UHGV virus genome: UHGV-0382853
Source of the DNA: a virus
Reading direction: 5' to 3' (one strand)
Length of the DNA stretch: 40,325 nt
Below, piece by piece: positions 16,471-38,422 of this stretch. The position numbers and the translations under genes are program-made. The notes beneath the pieces are model-generated. The model worked only from the letters and a program-made list of their open reading frames with translations. It had not been told where the DNA came from and did no database searches. Within the stretch, counting starts at the first letter, position 1. Every line of letters starts with the position of its first letter.

Positions 16471-16547
16471 GTGGCATTAGCTCAGTTGGACAGAGCAACC
16501 GCCTTCTAAGCGGTTGGTCGCAGGTTCGAATCCTGCATGCCACGCCA
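16471..16547 (+). tRNA. tRNA-Arg (anticodon TCT, reads AGA)
   Basis: Cloverleaf by eye: acceptor stem gtggcat/atgccac, anticodon loop cTTCTAAg, T-arm ggttcgaatcc, 3' CCA encoded. Confidence 0.85.
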
Positions 16548-25372: not shown

Positions 25373-25405
25373 CAAAAATCAAGGATAGTTACCCATGAGG
25401 TGCAT

Positions 25406-25420
25406 TTACCTGTTGGGTAA
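25406..25420. promoter_or_regulatory. operator-like palindrome in immunity region
   Basis: ttacctgttgggtaa; an additional partial site ttacccatgaggtgc lies at about 25390-25404. Confidence 0.5.
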
Positions 25421-25475
25421 TATTGCTTTAAATTGAATCATCTTCTGATTCAGATATGAGGCGATTTTCCAGAAA

Positions 25476-26060
25476 ATGAAAAGTATCCAGGACGTCCGCA
25501 GGCAAAATCTCAACGACTTGATCGACCGTGAATTCAATGGTGTTCAGACGCGGATGGCTGAAAAACTTGGAACTCAGGCAAATCTGGTAAACCGCTGGGC
25601 TCTTGGCAAGAAGGTTATCGGCGACCAGGTTGCGCGAAAAATTGAAGCTGCCGCCAATAAACCCCGTAACTGGCTTGATATCGATCGCTCGCTTTCTCAG
25701 GAAGGTTTTCAGCCTGTCGGACCAAGCGACATTGGTCAACTGGCGGCTCACAACCTGAAACGCTGGATGAGCGAAAGCCGCGACCTTTCAACGCAGGGAA
25801 AACTTCACCGCGCATCCGGCGTCGCCCAGGTAACAATCAGTCGCCTGTTAAACAATGAGGTCAGCGTTTCCATTTCCACCCTGGAGAATGTTGCATCCGC
25901 ATTCGGGCGTCACGGCTATGAATTACTGATTCACCCGCACGACCCTGCGACCATCAACTATGACCGCTCGCGCTACGCATTGTTACCCGAAACCGAGAAA
26001 GCAAAGATCGAAAGTTACATTGAATTTGTCATCAACCAGAACGAAAAAAACAAACAATAA
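25476..26060 (+). CDS. phage repressor, tandem-HTH type with no recognisable peptidase (autocleavage) domain
   Basis: 194 aa; two HTH-like segments (QTRMAEKLGTQANLVNRWALGKK and LHRASGVAQVTISRLLNNEVS); no S24-like Ser/Lys motifs seen; divergent from cro-like gene. Confidence 0.6.
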   Translation: MKSIQDVRRQNLNDLIDREFNGVQTRMAEKLGTQANLVNRWALGKKVIGDQVARKIEAAANKPRNWLDIDRSLSQEGFQPVGPSDIGQLAAHNLKRWMSESRDLSTQGKLHRASGVAQVTISRLLNNEVSVSISTLENVASAFGRHGYELLIHPHDPATINYDRSRYALLPETEKAKIESYIEFVINQNEKNKQ

Positions 26061-26104: not shown

Positions 26105-26117
26105 ATTGCCTATTTGA

Positions 26118-26132
26118 TTACCTAACGGGTAA
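26118..26132. promoter_or_regulatory. operator-like palindrome at early-left promoter
   Basis: ttacctaacgggtaa; TTGACA at 26152-26157. Confidence 0.5.
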
Positions 26133-26179
26133 TTTTTTTAACTCATATCTATTGACATCAAACCAGATACGCATAATTA

Positions 26180-26194
26180 TTACCTCAACGGTAA
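26180..26194. promoter_or_regulatory. operator-like palindrome at early-left promoter
   Basis: ttacctcaacggtaa, about 20 bp upstream of the first early-left ORF. Confidence 0.5.
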
Positions 26195-26213
26195 CAGACC
26201 GAGGTAACAAGTT

Positions 26214-30114: not shown

Positions 30115-31362
30115 TTATCCCGCCATCCACTTCTCAAACTTCGACGGGGAGAACGGAATCAGATCCGTATGCTCCCCGTCAATCCAGGAATCAATCATAT
30201 CGGCCCACTGCTGCAACATGTAGGCGCGCTGTCTGGCGTATTCCGCTTTGTTATATACGGCGCGCACACCTTTCTGCTCATGTGCCAGAGCCTTTTCAAT
30301 CCAGTCTGAAGGATAACCAGCCTCATGCAACAACGTACTTGCTGTACGGCGCATATCGTGTACGGTGAAGCCCTGAATATGCTCACCATCTTCATTTATT
30401 ATTTTCACCGTTCTGTCGATCAGAGAGTTCAGCGCGGCATTAGATAATGGCTTCCGGAAATTGTAACGACCAGGAACCAGATATTCACTTCCACCAGCGC
30501 ACATCTGCAACCCGACCAATATATCCTGAGCCTGTTTAGGCAGGTAAATAACGTGCGCCCGGCTTCCCTTCATGCGGTCTGAAGGAATTGTCCATGTCCA
30601 TTTTTTAAAATCTATTTCATCCCACGTTGCGTTGGTGAATTCGCCTTTACGAACCATAGTGATAAGCACCAGCTTTAAAGCCATTTTCATAGTGCCCATA
30701 GCACCAATGGCATCCAGCGTGCGGAAGAACAGGCCAATTTCTTCTGGTGTCAGTGTTCGCTCTCGTGGTTTAAATATGGCGATAGACGAAGGTTTAATGT
30801 CAGCCGCAGGATTAAACAAACCATGACCACGGTCATTGGCGTGACGGTATACGCTGCTGATGATCTCCCTGGCCTGTACTGCTGTTGCCCGACCACCGCG
30901 TTCGACAATCCGGTCACACAAATCACGAACCATCGATGTGGTAATTTCAGCCATCATTTTGTTGCCAAGAACCGGAAGTATGTCACGGTCGATCACCGCC
31001 TGCTTCATTGCGCGGGTACTGTCAGCCAGGATGACGTGTTTCATATAACTGTCGGTATGTACCGCAAACGTCTCAGCACCACGAATCTTTTTGATACCGT
31101 CACGTTTAGCCGCAGCCGGTGACTGGCCTGCTTTAAGCAGCTTCTTTGCAGCAATCAGTTCTTCCCGCGCTTCTGCCAGGCTGATACCGTCACGCCCATA
31201 CTGCCCGATTACCAGTGTTTCGCGGCGACCGTTGATACGGTAGTCATAGCGAAACGAGACCGTGCCTGACGTAAGCACAGCTACATACAGCCCGTCACGA
31301 TCGGAGACCTTGTACAGTTTGTCCTGCGGCTTGAGGTTTTTTAATTTTGTATCGGTAAGCAC
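30115..31362 (-). CDS. int: tyrosine integrase (P4-type)
   Basis: 415 aa; N-terminal MLTDTKLKNLKP...DGLYVAV... (DUF4102-like arm-binding domain) and C-terminal HDMRRTASTLLHEAGY...YNKAEYARQ catalytic region. Confidence 0.9.
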   Translation of the reverse strand: MLTDTKLKNLKPQDKLYKVSDRDGLYVAVLTSGTVSFRYDYRINGRRETLVIGQYGRDGISLAEAREELIAAKKLLKAGQSPAAAKRDGIKKIRGAETFAVHTDSYMKHVILADSTRAMKQAVIDRDILPVLGNKMMAEITTSMVRDLCDRIVERGGRATAVQAREIISSVYRHANDRGHGLFNPAADIKPSSIAIFKPRERTLTPEEIGLFFRTLDAIGAMGTMKMALKLVLITMVRKGEFTNATWDEIDFKKWTWTIPSDRMKGSRAHVIYLPKQAQDILVGLQMCAGGSEYLVPGRYNFRKPLSNAALNSLIDRTVKIINEDGEHIQGFTVHDMRRTASTLLHEAGYPSDWIEKALAHEQKGVRAVYNKAEYARQRAYMLQQWADMIDSWIDGEHTDLIPFSPSKFEKWMAG

Positions 31363-31419: not shown

Positions 31420-31679
31420 TACCGTCACCTGTACCGCCGAAAAATATGGTGTAGAGTGAATAGAAATGAATACATAAAAACAAAAACCCCCTGCAAAAAC
31501 AGAGGGTTGAGTTGGCATCTGAATAGGAATGATTTGCTATGAGTTAGCTGTTAATCATTCCCACTCAATTATTTACGATAACCATAACCAATTGAGTGAT
31601 AACATTTTTCCAAATCTCAATTTTTATCGTACCGTTTTATATACCGTCACCGGAAATCAGTACCATGAAAAATGCCATG

Positions 31680-36162: not shown

Positions 36163-36266
36163 GTTAAATCTCCAGATAGTCGCAGCACCCGTTGCGCCGC
36201 ATATCTGGTTATTCTATTACCTGAAAAACCACATATGGATAAAAAGGCTGTAAATACGAATAGATA

Positions 36267-36281
36267 TTACCTTTCAGGTAA
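36267..36281. promoter_or_regulatory. operator-like palindrome between tailspike and antirepressor
   Basis: ttacctttcaggtaa; half-site ttacctgaa at about 36217. Confidence 0.5.
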
Positions 36282-36320
36282 TTTGCAAAACGTGCTGGAT
36301 AGCAAACAAATTATTTGCTA

Positions 36321-36336
36321 CTGTATAAATATACAG
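36321..36336. promoter_or_regulatory. LexA (SOS) box
   Basis: taCTGTataaatatACAGtt: exact CTGT-N8-ACAG with AT-rich spacer, 22 bp upstream of the ATG at 36358. Confidence 0.75.
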
Positions 36337-36357
36337 TTATTGCATGGAGAAGATAAG

Positions 36358-36615
36358 ATGCAGCGGTATCACTATCCACTGGAAGACGGATTTACCGAAA
36401 GGATTCACACGCCGGGAGGCGTCAGGTCACTGGTGGAGGGATCGCACTTGATGAAATTACTCCGGGATCTCGATAAGGATGGATTTAATGTCGATGGCCC
36501 ACTTGCCGAACTGACTGCACTGATTAACTACGTTACCAGCTCACAGATGTCTATGCGGGATCTGCAAACACATCTCGACTATTGTGCCGAACAATTACGA
36601 AAACAAACCCGGTAA
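36358..36615 (+). CDS. small antirepressor-like protein, paralog of the C-terminal domain of the AntA-type antirepressor
   Basis: 85 aa from ATG 36358 (GGAGAAG SD); aligns with the C-terminus of the 37766..38422 product (IH.P.GV...LM.LL..L..DG..V.G..AELT...LRD.QTH); the track start 36235 lies upstream of the LexA box and is discarded. Confidence 0.6.
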   Translation: MQRYHYPLEDGFTERIHTPGGVRSLVEGSHLMKLLRDLDKDGFNVDGPLAELTALINYVTSSQMSMRDLQTHLDYCAEQLRKQTR

Positions 36616-36622
36616 ATTTAAA

Positions 36623-36638
36623 GGCCGCAAGAGCGGCC
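36623..36638. terminator. bidirectional terminator hairpin
   Basis: ggccgc-aaga-gcggcc flanked by T-rich sequence on both strands; between convergent genes. Confidence 0.5.
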
Positions 36639-37366
36639 TATCGTTTCGCTTTGTGCTCGTCCCAGCACGTTTTGCACCATGCCATTAAGCCATCCGCATT
36701 TTGATTATTAGGGTAAAAGCTTGTTCGTTTTCTGCGGACATTACAAATTGGGCACCACTTCATATGGCGTGTATTCTTTGGGCCATCGAGACACCTTGCA
36801 CACCACTTAGTCAATCCATCTGGATTTTTTGACGATTTCCTGAATTTTTCATATGGTAGGTTTATTCTGCATCGCAAGCACTGCTTGCTACCACTTGAAA
36901 CTCTGTTAGCTGATTCTTCTTTTGGCGGCGATACAGAAGGTATTCTTGCTGGCTCTGATACTGCCTGAGGTGCTTTTTTAGATGACTGAGACGATATGTC
37001 ATCACCAGGGAATCTTCCATGATATGCCGGACGCATTGACACTCCAGGTGGAAGCTCAGCTGTAAACGGCTTTGGCTGAATCAGTTGCCTCTCTTTTGCT
37101 AACTCCTGCTGTTTATAATATGTCTGGATTACCGCACTATCATAAGCAGGAGGTGCGGAAATATTAGGCGCATTACCTCCAGTTTTTTGAAACTGAGTAG
37201 AGGTGTGTTCTATCACCTGTGTACGATTAATCGTTATCTCCCCATCTTCGGTCTTTATCGTTTTGTTATGATTAACGACCGTACGATCAGAGATCTTAGT
37301 CTTGTTCTGGTTGATAACGTAAATAATCACCGCAACCACACCAACAACTATCCAGAAAACTTCCAT
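36638..37366 (-). CDS. membrane-anchored protein with duplicated C-terminal zinc-ribbon (CxxC-N-CxxC x2)
   Basis: 242 aa; N-terminal TM helix (FWIVVGVVAVIIYVI); C-terminal repeats C.RC...DGL..WC..C; GAGGAAAA SD. Confidence 0.5.
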   Translation of the reverse strand: MEVFWIVVGVVAVIIYVINQNKTKISDRTVVNHNKTIKTEDGEITINRTQVIEHTSTQFQKTGGNAPNISAPPAYDSAVIQTYYKQQELAKERQLIQPKPFTAELPPGVSMRPAYHGRFPGDDISSQSSKKAPQAVSEPARIPSVSPPKEESANRVSSGSKQCLRCRINLPYEKFRKSSKNPDGLTKWCARCLDGPKNTRHMKWCPICNVRRKRTSFYPNNQNADGLMAWCKTCWDEHKAKR

Positions 37367-37401: not shown

Positions 37402-37479
37402 TATCTTGCTTTCAGGTGATCAAGCGTTAAACGCAATCAACCAAATACGGTTGATTTTAATATTTCTTCGCGTTTATCA

Positions 37480-37494
37480 TTACCTTTGCGGTAA
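37480..37494. promoter_or_regulatory. operator-like palindrome
   Basis: ttacctttgcggtaa at the head of the antirepressor leader. Confidence 0.5.
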
Positions 37495-37585
37495 ATTTAC
37501 ATTGCACTCCTCTTGTGCCATAGTAATCGGGCACTGGCAAAATCCAGTGCCGGGATTGGTCTCCCGGATTACTAAGTGGCGCATA

Positions 37586-37607
37586 CCACGCCAGACGTGG
37601 TTTTTTT
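37586..37607 (+). terminator. rho-independent terminator inside the antirepressor leader
   Basis: ccacg-ccaga-cgtgg followed by ttttttt. Confidence 0.55.
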
Positions 37608-37765
37608 ATGCGTATAGCACAGTCATGCCAGAATTATGGTGGGCTGAATGGGGGTCCGAAAGGACGCCGGTACCACTTAGGCCGGTAAGACCAACTCCGT
37701 TCAGTTCACCACCATCTGATTGGTCTCAGCGGTGGTGATGTAATTCGCTAAGTGGAGACGCCATC

Positions 37766-38422
37766 ATGAACGCTCAACTCATCCCCGTATTCAACGGCAC
37801 TATATCTAACGAAACAGCCCTACTTTGTAATGCCCGCGATCTGCACACTTTTTTAGGTGTTAAAAAGGTGTTTGCAGCATGGATTACAAATCGCATATCA
37901 GAATACGAATTCATTGAAAATCAAGACTATATTTTGCTTTCCAATTTGGGAAAGCAAACATCTGGTAGAGGCGGCCACAACCGCAAAGAGTACCACCTCA
38001 CCCTTGATACAGCCAAAGAGCTGGCGATGGTCGAGCGTAACGAAAAAGGTCGCCAGGTGCGACGCTACTTCATTGAATGCGAGAAACGTTTAAGACAACA
38101 AGAAACAAAAGTGGAGAAGGTCTTGTCAGGCTTCATGCCCGCCATTATGGAGGCGATCAAGCTGGAAGACAAAAAAGAATACAGCGCCCCACTGAAGCCC
38201 GGCTACCGCAGCCTGATTCATTCTCCGTCTGGTGTTCTCGGACTGACGGAGAACTCACTGCTGATGAATCTGCTGAACCAGTTACAGGAAGACGGGCACG
38301 ACGTATCGGGCGCGGCGGCGGAGCTGACCACCATGTTCTGCTACATCGTCGGTGTGAGCAAATGCCTGCGTGATATCCAGACGCACGCGGAGTACATCAA
38401 CGACAAGGCAGGGTTCTTCTGA
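37766..38422 (+). CDS. antirepressor (AntA/AntB N-terminal domain)
   Basis: 218 aa; N-terminal IPVFNGT...LCNARDLHTFLGVKKVFAAWITNRISEYEFIENQDYIL typical of AntA domain; C-terminal domain paralogous to the 36358 product. Confidence 0.7.
   Translation: MNAQLIPVFNGTISNETALLCNARDLHTFLGVKKVFAAWITNRISEYEFIENQDYILLSNLGKQTSGRGGHNRKEYHLTLDTAKELAMVERNEKGRQVRRYFIECEKRLRQQETKVEKVLSGFMPAIMEAIKLEDKKEYSAPLKPGYRSLIHSPSGVLGLTENSLLMNLLNQLQEDGHDVSGAAAELTTMFCYIVGVSKCLRDIQTHAEYINDKAGFF

What the first reader, a model, noticed from the sequence alone, without database searches (positions are those of the whole stretch)
36267..36615. Consensus LexA box in front of a truncated antirepressor paralog, paired with a repressor that shows no autocleavage domain
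taCTGTataaatatACAGtt lies 22 bp upstream of an 85-aa ORF that is homologous to the C-terminal domain of the full-length AntA-type antirepressor. The candidate repressor has two HTH segments and no recognisable S24 peptidase motifs. This predicts SOS induction by LexA-controlled antirepressor expression (as established for Gifsy prophages and coliphage 186 Tum) rather than by RecA-mediated repressor cleavage. The inducer would be a stand-alone copy of the repressor-binding domain.
Basis: partly seen in the sequence, partly recalled or inferred. Interest (0 to 1): 0.7.

Follow-up and report, generated by a model that had tools for sequence, protein, structure and literature searches.

The report
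LexA-controlled phage antirepressor (SPC32H-type)

Summary
A near-consensus LexA box (TACTGTATAAATATACAGTT, 36319-36338) is unique in the window and sits 19-21 nt before an 85-aa ORF (36358-36615). That ORF is 43% identical to the C-terminal domain of the 218-aa AntA-type protein (37766-38422). The repressor (25476-26060) has two HTH regions, and no S24 peptidase domain exists anywhere in the window. The window is a phiV10/epsilon15-like (Uetakevirus) E. coli phage. The small ORF matches Salmonella phage SPC32H Ant (PDB 5D50_E, E=3.5e-46, 87% identity). The repressor matches SPC32H Rep over its full length (5D50_A, E=3.9e-42). The LexA box aligns with the SPC32H box, including the base that differs in SPC32N. 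So SOS induction works by LexA-derepressed Ant disabling a non-cleavable Rep. The small ORF is not a recent truncation. It belongs to the stand-alone lineage of a small domain family that is also fused behind AntA, Bro-N, Rha or ORF6N domains. The long paralog has no LexA box. It lies behind IsrK and C4 RNAs, a P1 immI / Gifsy-1 anrP-type module. A phage with the same repressor (vB_EcoP_ZX5) keeps the identical C-terminal module on a swapped N-terminal domain.

The parts
36319..36338 (+). LexA operator (SOS box) TACTGTATAAATATACAGTT
   Evidence: 18/20 match to the consensus, unique in the window, 0/100 shuffles. It aligns column for column with the SPC32H box, and SPC32N differs from SPC32H there by C->A in the ACAG half-site. 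The box stays at -38 to -42 from the start codon in ant homologs down to 45% protein identity.
36296..36324 (+). Inferred ant promoter: -35 TGGATA (36296-36301), 17-nt spacer, extended -10 TGcTACTGT (36316-36324) overlapping the left half of the LexA box
   Evidence: Inference from the invariant columns CTGGA.A and TG.TA.TGT in the 10-phage alignment. The consensus promoter scan did not flag it. Secondary sources say LexA controls ant. That the box overlaps the ant promoter is my recollection of the Kim & Ryu 2013 abstract.
36346..36349 (+). Shine-Dalgarno GGAG, 8 nt before the ATG
   Evidence: Read directly from the sequence; conserved in the alignment.
36358..36615 (+). ant: 85-aa antirepressor, ortholog of SPC32H Ant
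   Evidence: PDB 5D50_E 'Anti-repressor protein', E=3.5e-46 over residues 2-84. 87% identity to the annotated ant genes of SPC32H and SPC32N. phrog_450 E=1.2e-47.
36622..36639 (.). GC-rich hairpin (AGGCCGC-tctt-GCGGCCT) between the convergent ant and the 242-aa ORF; likely a bidirectional terminator
   Evidence: Terminator-like site. The hairpin appears in the MFE fold, but the z-score is only -1.15. The epsilon15 record annotates a rho-independent terminator at the equivalent place.
36266..36282 (.). Perfect palindrome ATTACCTTTCAGGTAAT, a putative Rep operator in the tailspike/ant divergent region
   Evidence: 16 copies in the window against 1.2 expected. Conserved in all 10 phages. The equivalent epsilon15 site is annotated 'protein_bind repressor' as a prediction.
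25476..26060 (+). rep: 194-aa prophage repressor, homolog of SPC32H Rep, with no S24 domain
   Evidence: 5D50_A 'Repressor', E=3.9e-42 over residues 1-190; 5D4Z_A (C-terminal part), E=3.9e-20. Two HTH_3 stretches and no S24 hit. 99.5% identical to phiV10 Rep and 41.8% to SPC32H Rep.
25405..25421 (.). Putative Rep operator between the cro-like gene and rep
   Evidence: Palindrome match with 1 mismatch; sequence context.
26117..26195 (.). Two putative Rep operators (26117-26133 perfect, 26179-26195) downstream of rep and upstream of the early operon
   Evidence: Epsilon15 annotates three predicted repressor sites at the equivalent place.
37479..37524 (+). Putative Rep operator (37479-37495) abutting the -35 of a promoter-like site, TTTACA-17-CATAGT (37496-37524), that would start IsrK
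   Evidence: The same operator/-35/-10/IsrK layout is seen in the distant relative L011.
37531..37607 (+). IsrK-type sRNA with an intrinsic terminator
   Evidence: Rfam RF01394, 67.7 bits (gathering 50), full length. Terminator hairpin at 37585-37601 followed by a T run.
37632..37716 (+). C4-type antisense RNA, overlapping a 37-codon ORF (37625-37738)
   Evidence: Rfam RF01695, 61.2 bits (gathering 45). ORF read. The equivalent ORF in ZX5 is annotated 'ash family protein'.
37766..38422 (+). 218-aa long antirepressor paralog: AntA N-terminal domain plus Ant-like C-terminal domain
   Evidence: Pfam AntA E=6e-26. The C-domain hits 5D50_E at E=4.7e-14 over residues 137-213. Its C-terminal ~82 aa are identical to those of the ZX5 ORF4 anti-repressor, which has a Bro-N N-terminal domain.

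Best explanation
The locus is the SOS-sensing arm of the lysis-lysogeny switch of a phiV10/epsilon15-like (Uetakevirus) E. coli phage, orthologous to the SPC32H system. In the lysogen, Rep (25476-26060) holds the lytic operons off. Rep is a two-HTH repressor with a C-terminal tetramerisation tail and no S24 peptidase. Host LexA sits on the box at 36319-36338, which overlaps the ant promoter, and keeps ant (36358-36615) silent. DNA damage activates RecA, LexA cleaves itself, and ant is transcribed. The 85-aa Ant then binds Rep and takes the Rep tetramer off its operators, without any cleavage of Rep. Shown here: the box, both homologies, the absence of S24, and the positional conservation of the box. 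Taken from the literature on the ortholog: LexA control, the Ant-Rep complex and its stoichiometry. Inferred: that this Ant binds this Rep, and the exact promoter hexamers. The neighbouring 218-aa AntA-type paralog is a separate input, behind IsrK and C4 RNAs and probably Rep-repressed. It is not LexA-controlled.
For: The LexA box is 18/20 to the consensus, unique in the window, and absent from 100 shuffles. Ant matches PDB 5D50_E at E=3.5e-46 and is 87% identical to the annotated ant genes of SPC32H and SPC32N. Rep matches 5D50_A over its full length at E=3.9e-42. No S24 domain was found in Rep or anywhere else in the window. The tailspike-ant intergenic region aligns across 10 Uetakeviruses with the box in the same columns, and SPC32N differs from SPC32H by a C->A change inside the ACAG half-site. 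The box stays at -38 to -42 from the start codon in ant homologs down to 45% identity. Gene order and the intact attP core match epsilon15, phiV10 and ZX5. Literature: LexA self-cleavage leads to an Ant that inhibits the repressor by protein-protein interaction (PMC7380047). [quoted passage not shown] The Rep C-terminal domain mediates both tetramerisation and Ant binding (PMC9986798). Rep is most conserved with SPC32H Rep in the N-terminal DNA-binding domain (54%) and the C-terminal tail (51%). ZX5, whose Rep is as close to the window's as phiV10's (99.5%) and is reported to be the same sequence as phiV10's, is induced by mitomycin C (PMC9782041).
Against: No experiment exists for this phage. 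Rep is only about 42% identical to SPC32H Rep, so Ant-Rep binding here is inferred from co-inheritance, not shown. The consensus promoter scan found no sigma-70 site at ant, so the promoter assignment rests on conservation alone. The two primary SPC32H papers could not be read, so details of their mechanism come from secondary citations and from my memory of the abstracts. A second antirepressor with a homologous domain is present and could share or take over the inducing role.
Confidence: 0.9

Rival explanations
1. The effective inducer in this phage is the long 218-aa AntA-type protein, controlled by IsrK/C4 RNAs. The small LexA-controlled Ant would be accessory, or would act mainly in trans on repressors of co-resident related prophages, as in Gifsy-style cross-talk.
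For: Overexpressing the long Bro-N-type anti-repressor of ZX5 lowered the prophage titre from 1e9 to 1e6 PFU/mL and lowered rep transcription by 75% (PMC9782041). Its C-terminal ~82 aa are identical to those of the window protein. Ant is far more conserved across the genus (84-88%) than Rep (42%), which would fit a broad-specificity trans-acting factor.
Against: No second Ant-like match was found in the SPC32H, epsilon15 or phiV10 records at E<=1e-5. In SPC32H the small Ant alone mediates SOS induction (literature). No LexA box lies near the long gene, so it cannot sense SOS directly. The LexA box is conserved only at the small gene. The promoter of the long gene abuts a putative Rep operator, which places it downstream of Rep inactivation.
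Confidence: 0.06
2. The 85-aa ORF is a decaying, truncated remnant of an AntA-type antirepressor gene, with a fortuitous or vestigial LexA box and no function.
For: It aligns only with the C-terminal domain of the long protein. It is annotated 'hypothetical protein' in E. coli genomes and in most phage records.
Against: The 86-aa ortholog was crystallised as a functional antirepressor. The stand-alone size class is the majority of the family. The gene is present in 35 phage records and 531 of 5426 complete E. coli genomes at 90% identity or more. The box, the SD and the start codon are conserved together. Identity to the fused C-domains is only 31-47%, so the split is old.
Confidence: 0.01
3. 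Rep is inactivated directly by RecA-stimulated cleavage through an unrecognised, non-S24 mechanism, and the LexA-ant unit only modulates induction.
For: None from sequence. The reasoning rests only on absence of evidence, and Rep diverges 58% from the characterised protein.
Against: No S24 domain was found by Pfam at E<=1 or by targeted searches. Full-length homology to SPC32H Rep, which the literature reports is not cleaved but is disassembled by Ant.
Confidence: 0.02

Closest known systems
Salmonella phage SPC32H Ant-Rep-LexA antirepression switch (Kim & Ryu 2013, J Virol 87:11775; Kim et al. 2016, PNAS 113:E2480; PDB 5D50, 5D4Z)
   Same: Same phage genus (Uetakevirus). ant is in the same place, divergent from the tailspike gene. 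Ant is 87% identical. Rep is homologous over its full length with the same two-HTH plus C-terminal-tail layout and no S24. The LexA box is in the same aligned columns upstream of ant. The same ATTACC-N5-GGTAAT palindrome lies upstream.
   Different: The host is E. coli. Rep is only about 42% identical, with 54% in the N-terminal domain and 51% in the C-terminal tail. The box is closer to the consensus (18/20). This phage also carries a long IsrK/C4-controlled antirepressor with a homologous C-domain, and no such second match was found in the SPC32H record.
Gifsy-1/Gifsy-3 GfoA/GfhA and coliphage 186 / Fels-2 Tum (Lemire et al. 2011, PMC3121763; Shearwin et al. 1998)
   Same: Same logic: a LexA-repressed small antirepressor inactivates a non-cleavable repressor by protein-protein binding.
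   Different: No sequence relationship was detected. The Pfam and PHROG scans of the 85-aa protein gave only phrog_450, phrog_15539 and phrog_1760. The repressor families differ, and so does the phage type (sipho- and myoviruses against a podovirus).
Gifsy-1 isrK-orf45-anrP locus (Hershko-Shalev et al. 2016, PMC4825925) and the P1/P7 immI c4-icd-ant module
   Same: This applies to the long paralog only. An IsrK sRNA with its terminator, a C4-like RNA overlapping a short ORF, and then an antirepressor gene appear in the same order.
   Different: Here the module sits in a podovirus next to a LexA-controlled ant. Its antirepressor ends in a domain homologous to that ant. Its promoter abuts a putative Rep operator. 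Function was not tested.
P22 immI region (mnt-arc-ant, sar RNA)
   Same: An antirepressor locus lies immediately beside the tailspike gene of a temperate podovirus. A sar RNA hit occurs in the related phage TL-2011b.
   Different: P22 ant is controlled by Mnt, Arc and sar rather than LexA, and a P22 ant mutant remains SOS-inducible. That P22 C2 is a cleavable repressor is my own knowledge. No homology to the 85-aa Ant was found.
vB_EcoP_ZX5 ORF4 anti-repressor (PMC9782041)
   Same: ZX5 is a phiV10-like phage whose Rep is 99.5% identical to the window's. The C-terminal ~82 aa of its ORF4 are identical to those of the window's 218-aa protein.
   Different: The ZX5 N-terminal domain is Bro-N rather than AntA. 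That paper tested only the long protein, by overexpression, and does not mention LexA, SPC32H or the small ant.

Membership tests
SPC32H-type LexA/Ant/Rep antirepression switch | Small (~86 aa) Ant protein homologous to SPC32H Ant | tested here: met
   5D50_E E=3.5e-46 over residues 2-84; 87% identity to the annotated ant of SPC32H.
SPC32H-type LexA/Ant/Rep antirepression switch | Rep homologous to SPC32H Rep over its full length (N-terminal HTH, second HTH-like domain, C-terminal tetramerisation and Ant-binding tail) | tested here: met
   5D50_A E=3.9e-42 over residues 1-190; 5D4Z_A E=3.9e-20. Domain-wise identity 54/22/33/51%.
SPC32H-type LexA/Ant/Rep antirepression switch | Repressor lacks an S24 autocleavage domain | tested here: met
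   No Peptidase_S24 hit at E<=1. No S24-like ORF anywhere in the window.
SPC32H-type LexA/Ant/Rep antirepression switch | LexA box immediately upstream of ant, at the position of the SPC32H box | tested here: met
   Alignment A1 places the box in the same columns as in SPC32H. The SPC32N C->A difference lies inside it. The box is unique in the window.
SPC32H-type LexA/Ant/Rep antirepression switch | LexA binds the box and ant is SOS-induced | not testable with these tools
   Needs EMSA or footprinting and reporter assays. Only sequence conservation is available.
SPC32H-type LexA/Ant/Rep antirepression switch | Ant binds Rep and releases it from the operator | not testable with these tools
   Inferred from the homology of both partners to the 5D50 complex. 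Rep is only 42% identical to the crystallised protein.
186 Tum / Gifsy GfoA-GfhA antirepressors | Sequence homology to those proteins | tested here: inconclusive
   The Pfam scan at E<=1 and the PHROG scan returned no such family. No direct pairwise comparison was made because those sequences were not fetched. The functional analogy holds.
AntA/AntB antirepressors (Pfam PF08346) | AntA domain | tested here: not met
   The 85-aa ORF has no AntA hit. Only the 218-aa paralog has one (E=6e-26). The small gene shares only the non-AntA C-terminal module.
P1 immI / Gifsy-1 isrK-orf45-anrP module (long paralog only) | IsrK and C4-type RNAs, in order, upstream of a short ORF and an antirepressor gene | tested here: met
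   RF01394 at 67.7 bits and RF01695 at 61.2 bits, both above the gathering score. 37-codon ORF at 37625-37738. The same layout occurs in 5 related loci.
P1 immI / Gifsy-1 isrK-orf45-anrP module (long paralog only) | RNA-mediated translational control of the antirepressor | not testable with these tools
   Needs translational fusions as in PMC4825925.

The most novel reading that the evidence does not exclude
The Ant fold is a portable Rep-binding module, and phiV10-like phages carry it twice. One copy is the stand-alone LexA-gated Ant. The other is the C-terminus of a second antirepressor whose N-terminal domain is freely exchanged (AntA here; Bro-N in ZX5 and TL-2011b with an identical or nearly identical C-module; Rha or ORF6N elsewhere). 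That second gene is gated by IsrK/C4 RNAs and by a Rep operator at its promoter. The result would be a two-input switch, with an SOS trigger plus an RNA-gated, Rep-repressed second antirepressor. The second antirepressor would lock in the lytic decision or provide SOS-independent induction. It would also identify the repressor-binding part of a subset of the many unexplained 'AntA/Bro-N antirepressor' proteins.
Probability: 0.35. Interest if true: 0.5.

Novelty: already known. Interest (0 to 1): 0.22.

Why it matters
As a mechanism it adds nothing new. LexA-controlled antirepression of a non-cleavable repressor was shown genetically and structurally for the ortholog in SPC32H. The practical value lies in annotation. 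The gene is labelled 'hypothetical protein' in the 8 best-matching E. coli genomes listed, out of 531 of 5426 complete genomes that carry the locus, and in most phiV10-like phage records. A 2022 study of the near-identical phage ZX5 discussed its lysis-lysogeny control without noticing the gene. Many gene callers start the ORF at an upstream ATG (126 aa), which buries the LexA box inside a coding sequence. phiV10-type prophages are common in O157 and other pathogenic E. coli, so knowing that induction runs through LexA and Ant is useful for predicting SOS-dependent prophage induction. The side observation could be worth a small experimental follow-up: a shared Ant-like module in a second, RNA-gated antirepressor with swappable N-domains.

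Tried and rejected
1. Reading the primary SPC32H papers (PMC3807360, PMC4983836) and the epsilon15 genome paper (PMC2698709). None is held, so mechanistic details rest on secondary citations and on my memory of the abstracts.

2. The consensus promoter scan found no sigma-70 site in front of ant. The promoter in the parts list is therefore inferred from invariant columns only.

3. Folding the post-ant hairpin gave an unremarkable z-score of -1.15. I keep it as a likely terminator only because of the GC stem and the epsilon15 annotation.

4. The word-indexed protein search listed almost only proteins of stand-alone size (about 85-86 aa, plus longer gene calls of the same ORF) and no domain fusion. 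The exhaustive profile search was needed to see the fused forms.

5. I tested whether each long protein's C-domain tracks its co-resident small Ant, which would indicate gene conversion or co-evolution with the resident Rep. It does not (43, 37 and 31% identity), so a recent duplication or truncation is rejected.

6. I considered whether the window is an integrated prophage. It is not. The attP core is intact and int lies next to the lysis genes, so the window is in phage order. It has no terminal repeat.

7. I looked for a hidden S24 repressor elsewhere in the window and found none.

8. One fused-form context (L015) lacked a neighbouring small ant, but it is an IS-ridden remnant and its hit was weak (E=2.5e-4).

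Full report
**1. What is in the sequence**

The site TACTGTATAAATATACAGTT lies at 36319-36338 (+). It matches the 20-mer E. coli LexA consensus at 18 of 20 positions. It is the only site in the 40,325-bp window within 3 mismatches, and none appeared in 100 dinucleotide-preserving shuffles. The bare core CTGT-N8-ACAG occurs three times, but the other two copies have GC-rich spacers.

A GGAG lies at 36346-36349. The ATG at 36358 opens an 85-codon ORF that ends at 36615. Its product aligns with residues 137-210 of the 218-aa protein encoded at 37766-38422 (43% identity over 74 aa, E=1e-16). That longer protein carries a Pfam AntA domain at residues 22-92.

**2. What the window is**

The tailspike-ant region is 95-99% identical to Escherichia phages TL-2011b, phiV10, ZX5, HEMP4, phiv142-3 and the O157 typing phages. 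It is about 76% identical to Salmonella epsilon15-group phages. The gene order is the reverse complement of the epsilon15 map. The published attP core ATTGAGTGGGAATGATT is intact at 31553-31569, between int and the lysis genes. The window is therefore a Uetakevirus genome in phage order, not integrated order.

**3. Identity of the two proteins**

The 85-aa product matches chain E of PDB 5D50 ('Anti-repressor protein', 86 aa) at E=3.5e-46 over residues 2-84. It is 87% identical to the genes annotated ant in Salmonella phages SPC32H and SPC32N.

The repressor is the 194-aa product of 25476-26060. It matches chain A of the same entry ('Repressor') over residues 1-190 at E=3.9e-42. It also matches 5D4Z, the C-terminal part, at E=3.9e-20. 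Pfam finds two HTH stretches and no Peptidase_S24 hit even at E<=1.

I found no S24-like protein elsewhere in the window. I scanned 64 ORFs against Pfam, although only 25 of the 55 matched families are listed there. I also searched 517 six-frame fragments with LexA, UmuD, lambda CI and a small S24 profile. Both partners of the crystallised Rep-Ant complex are therefore present, and the repressor has no autocleavage module.

**4. The control region is orthologous too**

I aligned the tailspike-ant intergenic region of the window with those of TL-2011b, phiV10, SPC32H, SPC32N, epsilon15, Tyrion, BUCT554 and two Klebsiella phages. The LexA box falls in the same columns in all ten. SPC32N differs from SPC32H there by one base, C->A in the ACAG half-site. 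As I recall the Kim & Ryu 2013 abstract, SPC32N carries a single-nucleotide mutation in the LexA-binding consensus that overlaps the ant promoter and makes Ant constitutive. The equivalent base in the window is C36334.

In more distant ant homologs (45-59% protein identity), a LexA-like box persists at -38 to -42 from the start codon.

The invariant columns suggest a promoter with -35 TGGATA (36296-36301), a 17-nt spacer, and an extended -10 TGcTACTGT that overlaps the left half of the box. This is an inference, because the consensus scan did not flag it.

**5. Mechanism**

From the literature on the ortholog, three points are established:
- After LexA self-cleavage, an antirepressor is made that inhibits the repressor by protein-protein interaction (PMC7380047, citing Kim & Ryu 2013).
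- Rep binds DNA as a tetramer, and the tetrameric Ant binds two Rep dimers and breaks the tetramer (PMC9638917, citing Kim et al. 2016).
- The Rep C-terminal domain is responsible for both tetramerisation and Ant binding (PMC9986798).

The window's Rep is only about 42% identical to SPC32H Rep. The identity is concentrated in the N-terminal DNA-binding domain (54%) and the C-terminal tail (51%). The linker is 22% identical and the middle domain 33%. This pattern is consistent with the conserved operator-like palindrome and the highly conserved Ant.

ZX5 carries a Rep 99.5% identical to the window's and is induced by mitomycin C.

I put 0.9 on this chain: LexA box, then ant derepression on SOS, then Ant disabling a non-cleavable Rep. 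The steps not shown for this phage are LexA binding, Ant-Rep binding and the promoter hexamers.

**6. Is the small gene a truncated paralog?**

An exhaustive profile search of 1.84 billion representatives found only 65 clusters with this domain. Most are stand-alone proteins of 80-95 aa. Longer proteins carry the domain at the C-terminus behind AntA, Bro-N, Rha or ORF6N domains.

The small Ants and the long C-domains are 31-47% identical. The long C-domains share their own signature (DIQTHAxYI). A long protein is no closer to its co-resident small Ant than to any other.

The two forms are therefore old paralogous lineages, not a recent truncation.

**7. The long paralog has a different control**

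No LexA box lies near the long gene. Instead, Rfam finds an IsrK sRNA (37531-37607, 67.7 bits) and a C4 antisense RNA (37632-37716, 61.2 bits) directly upstream. A 37-codon ORF (37625-37738) overlaps C4. A promoter-like TTTACA-17-CATAGT would start transcription at the IsrK 5' end.

This is the arrangement of the Gifsy-1 isrK-orf45-anrP locus. There, short IsrK activates translation of the read-through mRNA, and AnrP induces the prophage (PMC4825925). It also resembles P1 immI.

The same IsrK-C4-antirepressor unit sits beside the small ant in TL-2011b, phiV10, Tyrion and two metagenomic or genomic relatives. In five of the six fused-form contexts I examined (the window plus five others), the fused protein lies next to a small ant that is either divergent from a tailspike-sized gene or on a short contig with the same local layout. 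The exception is an IS-ridden remnant.

**8. Domain swap and experimental hint**

ZX5's 'ORF4 anti-repressor' has a Bro-N N-terminal domain. Its C-terminal ~82 residues are identical to those of the window's AntA-type protein.

Overexpressing ZX5 ORF4 lowered the prophage titre a thousand-fold and lowered rep transcription by 75% (PMC9782041). That paper does not mention LexA, SPC32H or the small ant.

The constant C-module on exchangeable N-domains, in phages with the same Rep, suggests the module is what targets Rep. This was not tested.

**9. Putative Rep operators**

The palindrome ATTACC-N5-GGTAAT occurs 16 times in the window (2 or fewer mismatches) against 1.2 expected. Most copies are in intergenic regions:
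- flanking rep (25405, 26117, 26179);
- upstream of ant (36266-36282, a perfect copy);
- abutting the -35 of the IsrK promoter (37479-37495).

The epsilon15 record annotates the equivalent sites as predicted repressor-binding sites. The same operator/-35/-10/IsrK layout recurs in the distant locus L011.

If these sites are Rep operators, the long antirepressor is expressed only after Rep has been inactivated. That would give positive feedback. This is inference.

**10. Comparison and verdict**

The locus meets every sequence-testable criterion for membership of the SPC32H-type switch. The biochemical criteria cannot be tested here. It shares only its logic with Gifsy GfoA/GfhA and 186 Tum. The small gene is not a member of the AntA family.

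The finding is correct but already explained, so interest is low. Two things remain of value. The first is annotation: the locus is present in 531 of 5426 complete E. coli genomes and is called 'hypothetical' in the records listed. The second is the untested idea that these phages use two antirepressors that share one Rep-binding module under separate SOS and RNA control.

Noticed in passing
window 37496-38422: The long AntA-type antirepressor gene is preceded by a promoter-like site, an IsrK sRNA (37531-37607), a C4 antisense RNA (37632-37716) and a 37-codon ORF (37625-37738). This is a P1 immI / Gifsy-1 isrK-orf45-anrP-type module. It recurs beside the small ant in TL-2011b, phiV10, Tyrion, L011 and L012.
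   Followed up: yes
window 38162-38422 versus L014:3621-3866 (ZX5 ORF4) and L001 (TL-2011b): N-terminal domain swap. The window's long antirepressor has an AntA N-domain, and ZX5 and TL-2011b have Bro-N. The C-terminal ~82 aa (the Ant-like module) are identical in ZX5 and about 94% identical in TL-2011b. Elsewhere the same module follows Rha or ORF6N domains.
   Followed up: yes
window 6859, 16133, 19275, 19293, 23012, 23074, 25020, 25405, 26117, 26179, 31404, 33118, 36266, 37386, 37479, 38495: The palindrome ATTACC-N5-GGTAAT occurs 16 times against about 1.2 expected, mostly in intergenic regions and at promoters. It is probably the Rep operator (epsilon15 annotates equivalent sites as predicted repressor sites). 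It suggests Rep controls many operons directly, including the tailspike/ant divergent region and the IsrK promoter.
   Followed up: partly
window 31553-31569 (-), with int at 30115-31362 and lysis genes from 31680: The attP core ATTGAGTGGGAATGATT is intact and int is adjacent to the lysis genes. The window is therefore a complete phage genome in phage (circularly permuted) order, not an integrated prophage with host flanks. There is no terminal repeat.
   Followed up: yes
window 25476-26060 versus 36358-36615: Conservation is strongly asymmetric relative to SPC32H. Ant is 87% identical and Rep only about 42% (N-terminal domain 54%, C-terminal tail 51%, linker 22%, middle domain 33%). Ant might therefore act across immunity types within the genus.
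   Followed up: partly
window 36235-36615: Many database entries call a 126-aa ORF from the upstream ATG at 36235 (for example cluster P0003 with 833 members). That call places the LexA box and the promoter inside a coding sequence. The crystallised ortholog (86 aa) and the SD position support the 36358 start.
   Followed up: partly
window 16471-16547 (+): A tRNA-Arg (anticodon TCT) lies on the + strand, inside the block of structural and packaging genes that are on the - strand.
   Followed up: no
window 36638-37366 (-): A 242-aa ORF converges on ant. It has a hydrophobic N-terminus and weak matches in its C-terminal part to Stc1, endonuclease VII-like and Lar-like families (phrog_6762, function unknown). 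TL-2011b carries only a 'similar to hypothetical protein' misc_feature at this place.
   Followed up: no
L001:10471-10538 (TL-2011b): An Rfam sar RNA hit (the P22 immI antisense RNA; 44.8 bits, gathering 43) lies in the accessory region downstream of the antirepressor genes of TL-2011b. It is one more immI-like element near the tailspike in this phage group.
   Followed up: no
L011:10001-10960: The database gene call for the Rha-type fused antirepressor (P0131, 319 aa) overlaps the IsrK and C4 RNA genes. It is probably about 80-90 codons too long at its 5' end.
   Followed up: partly
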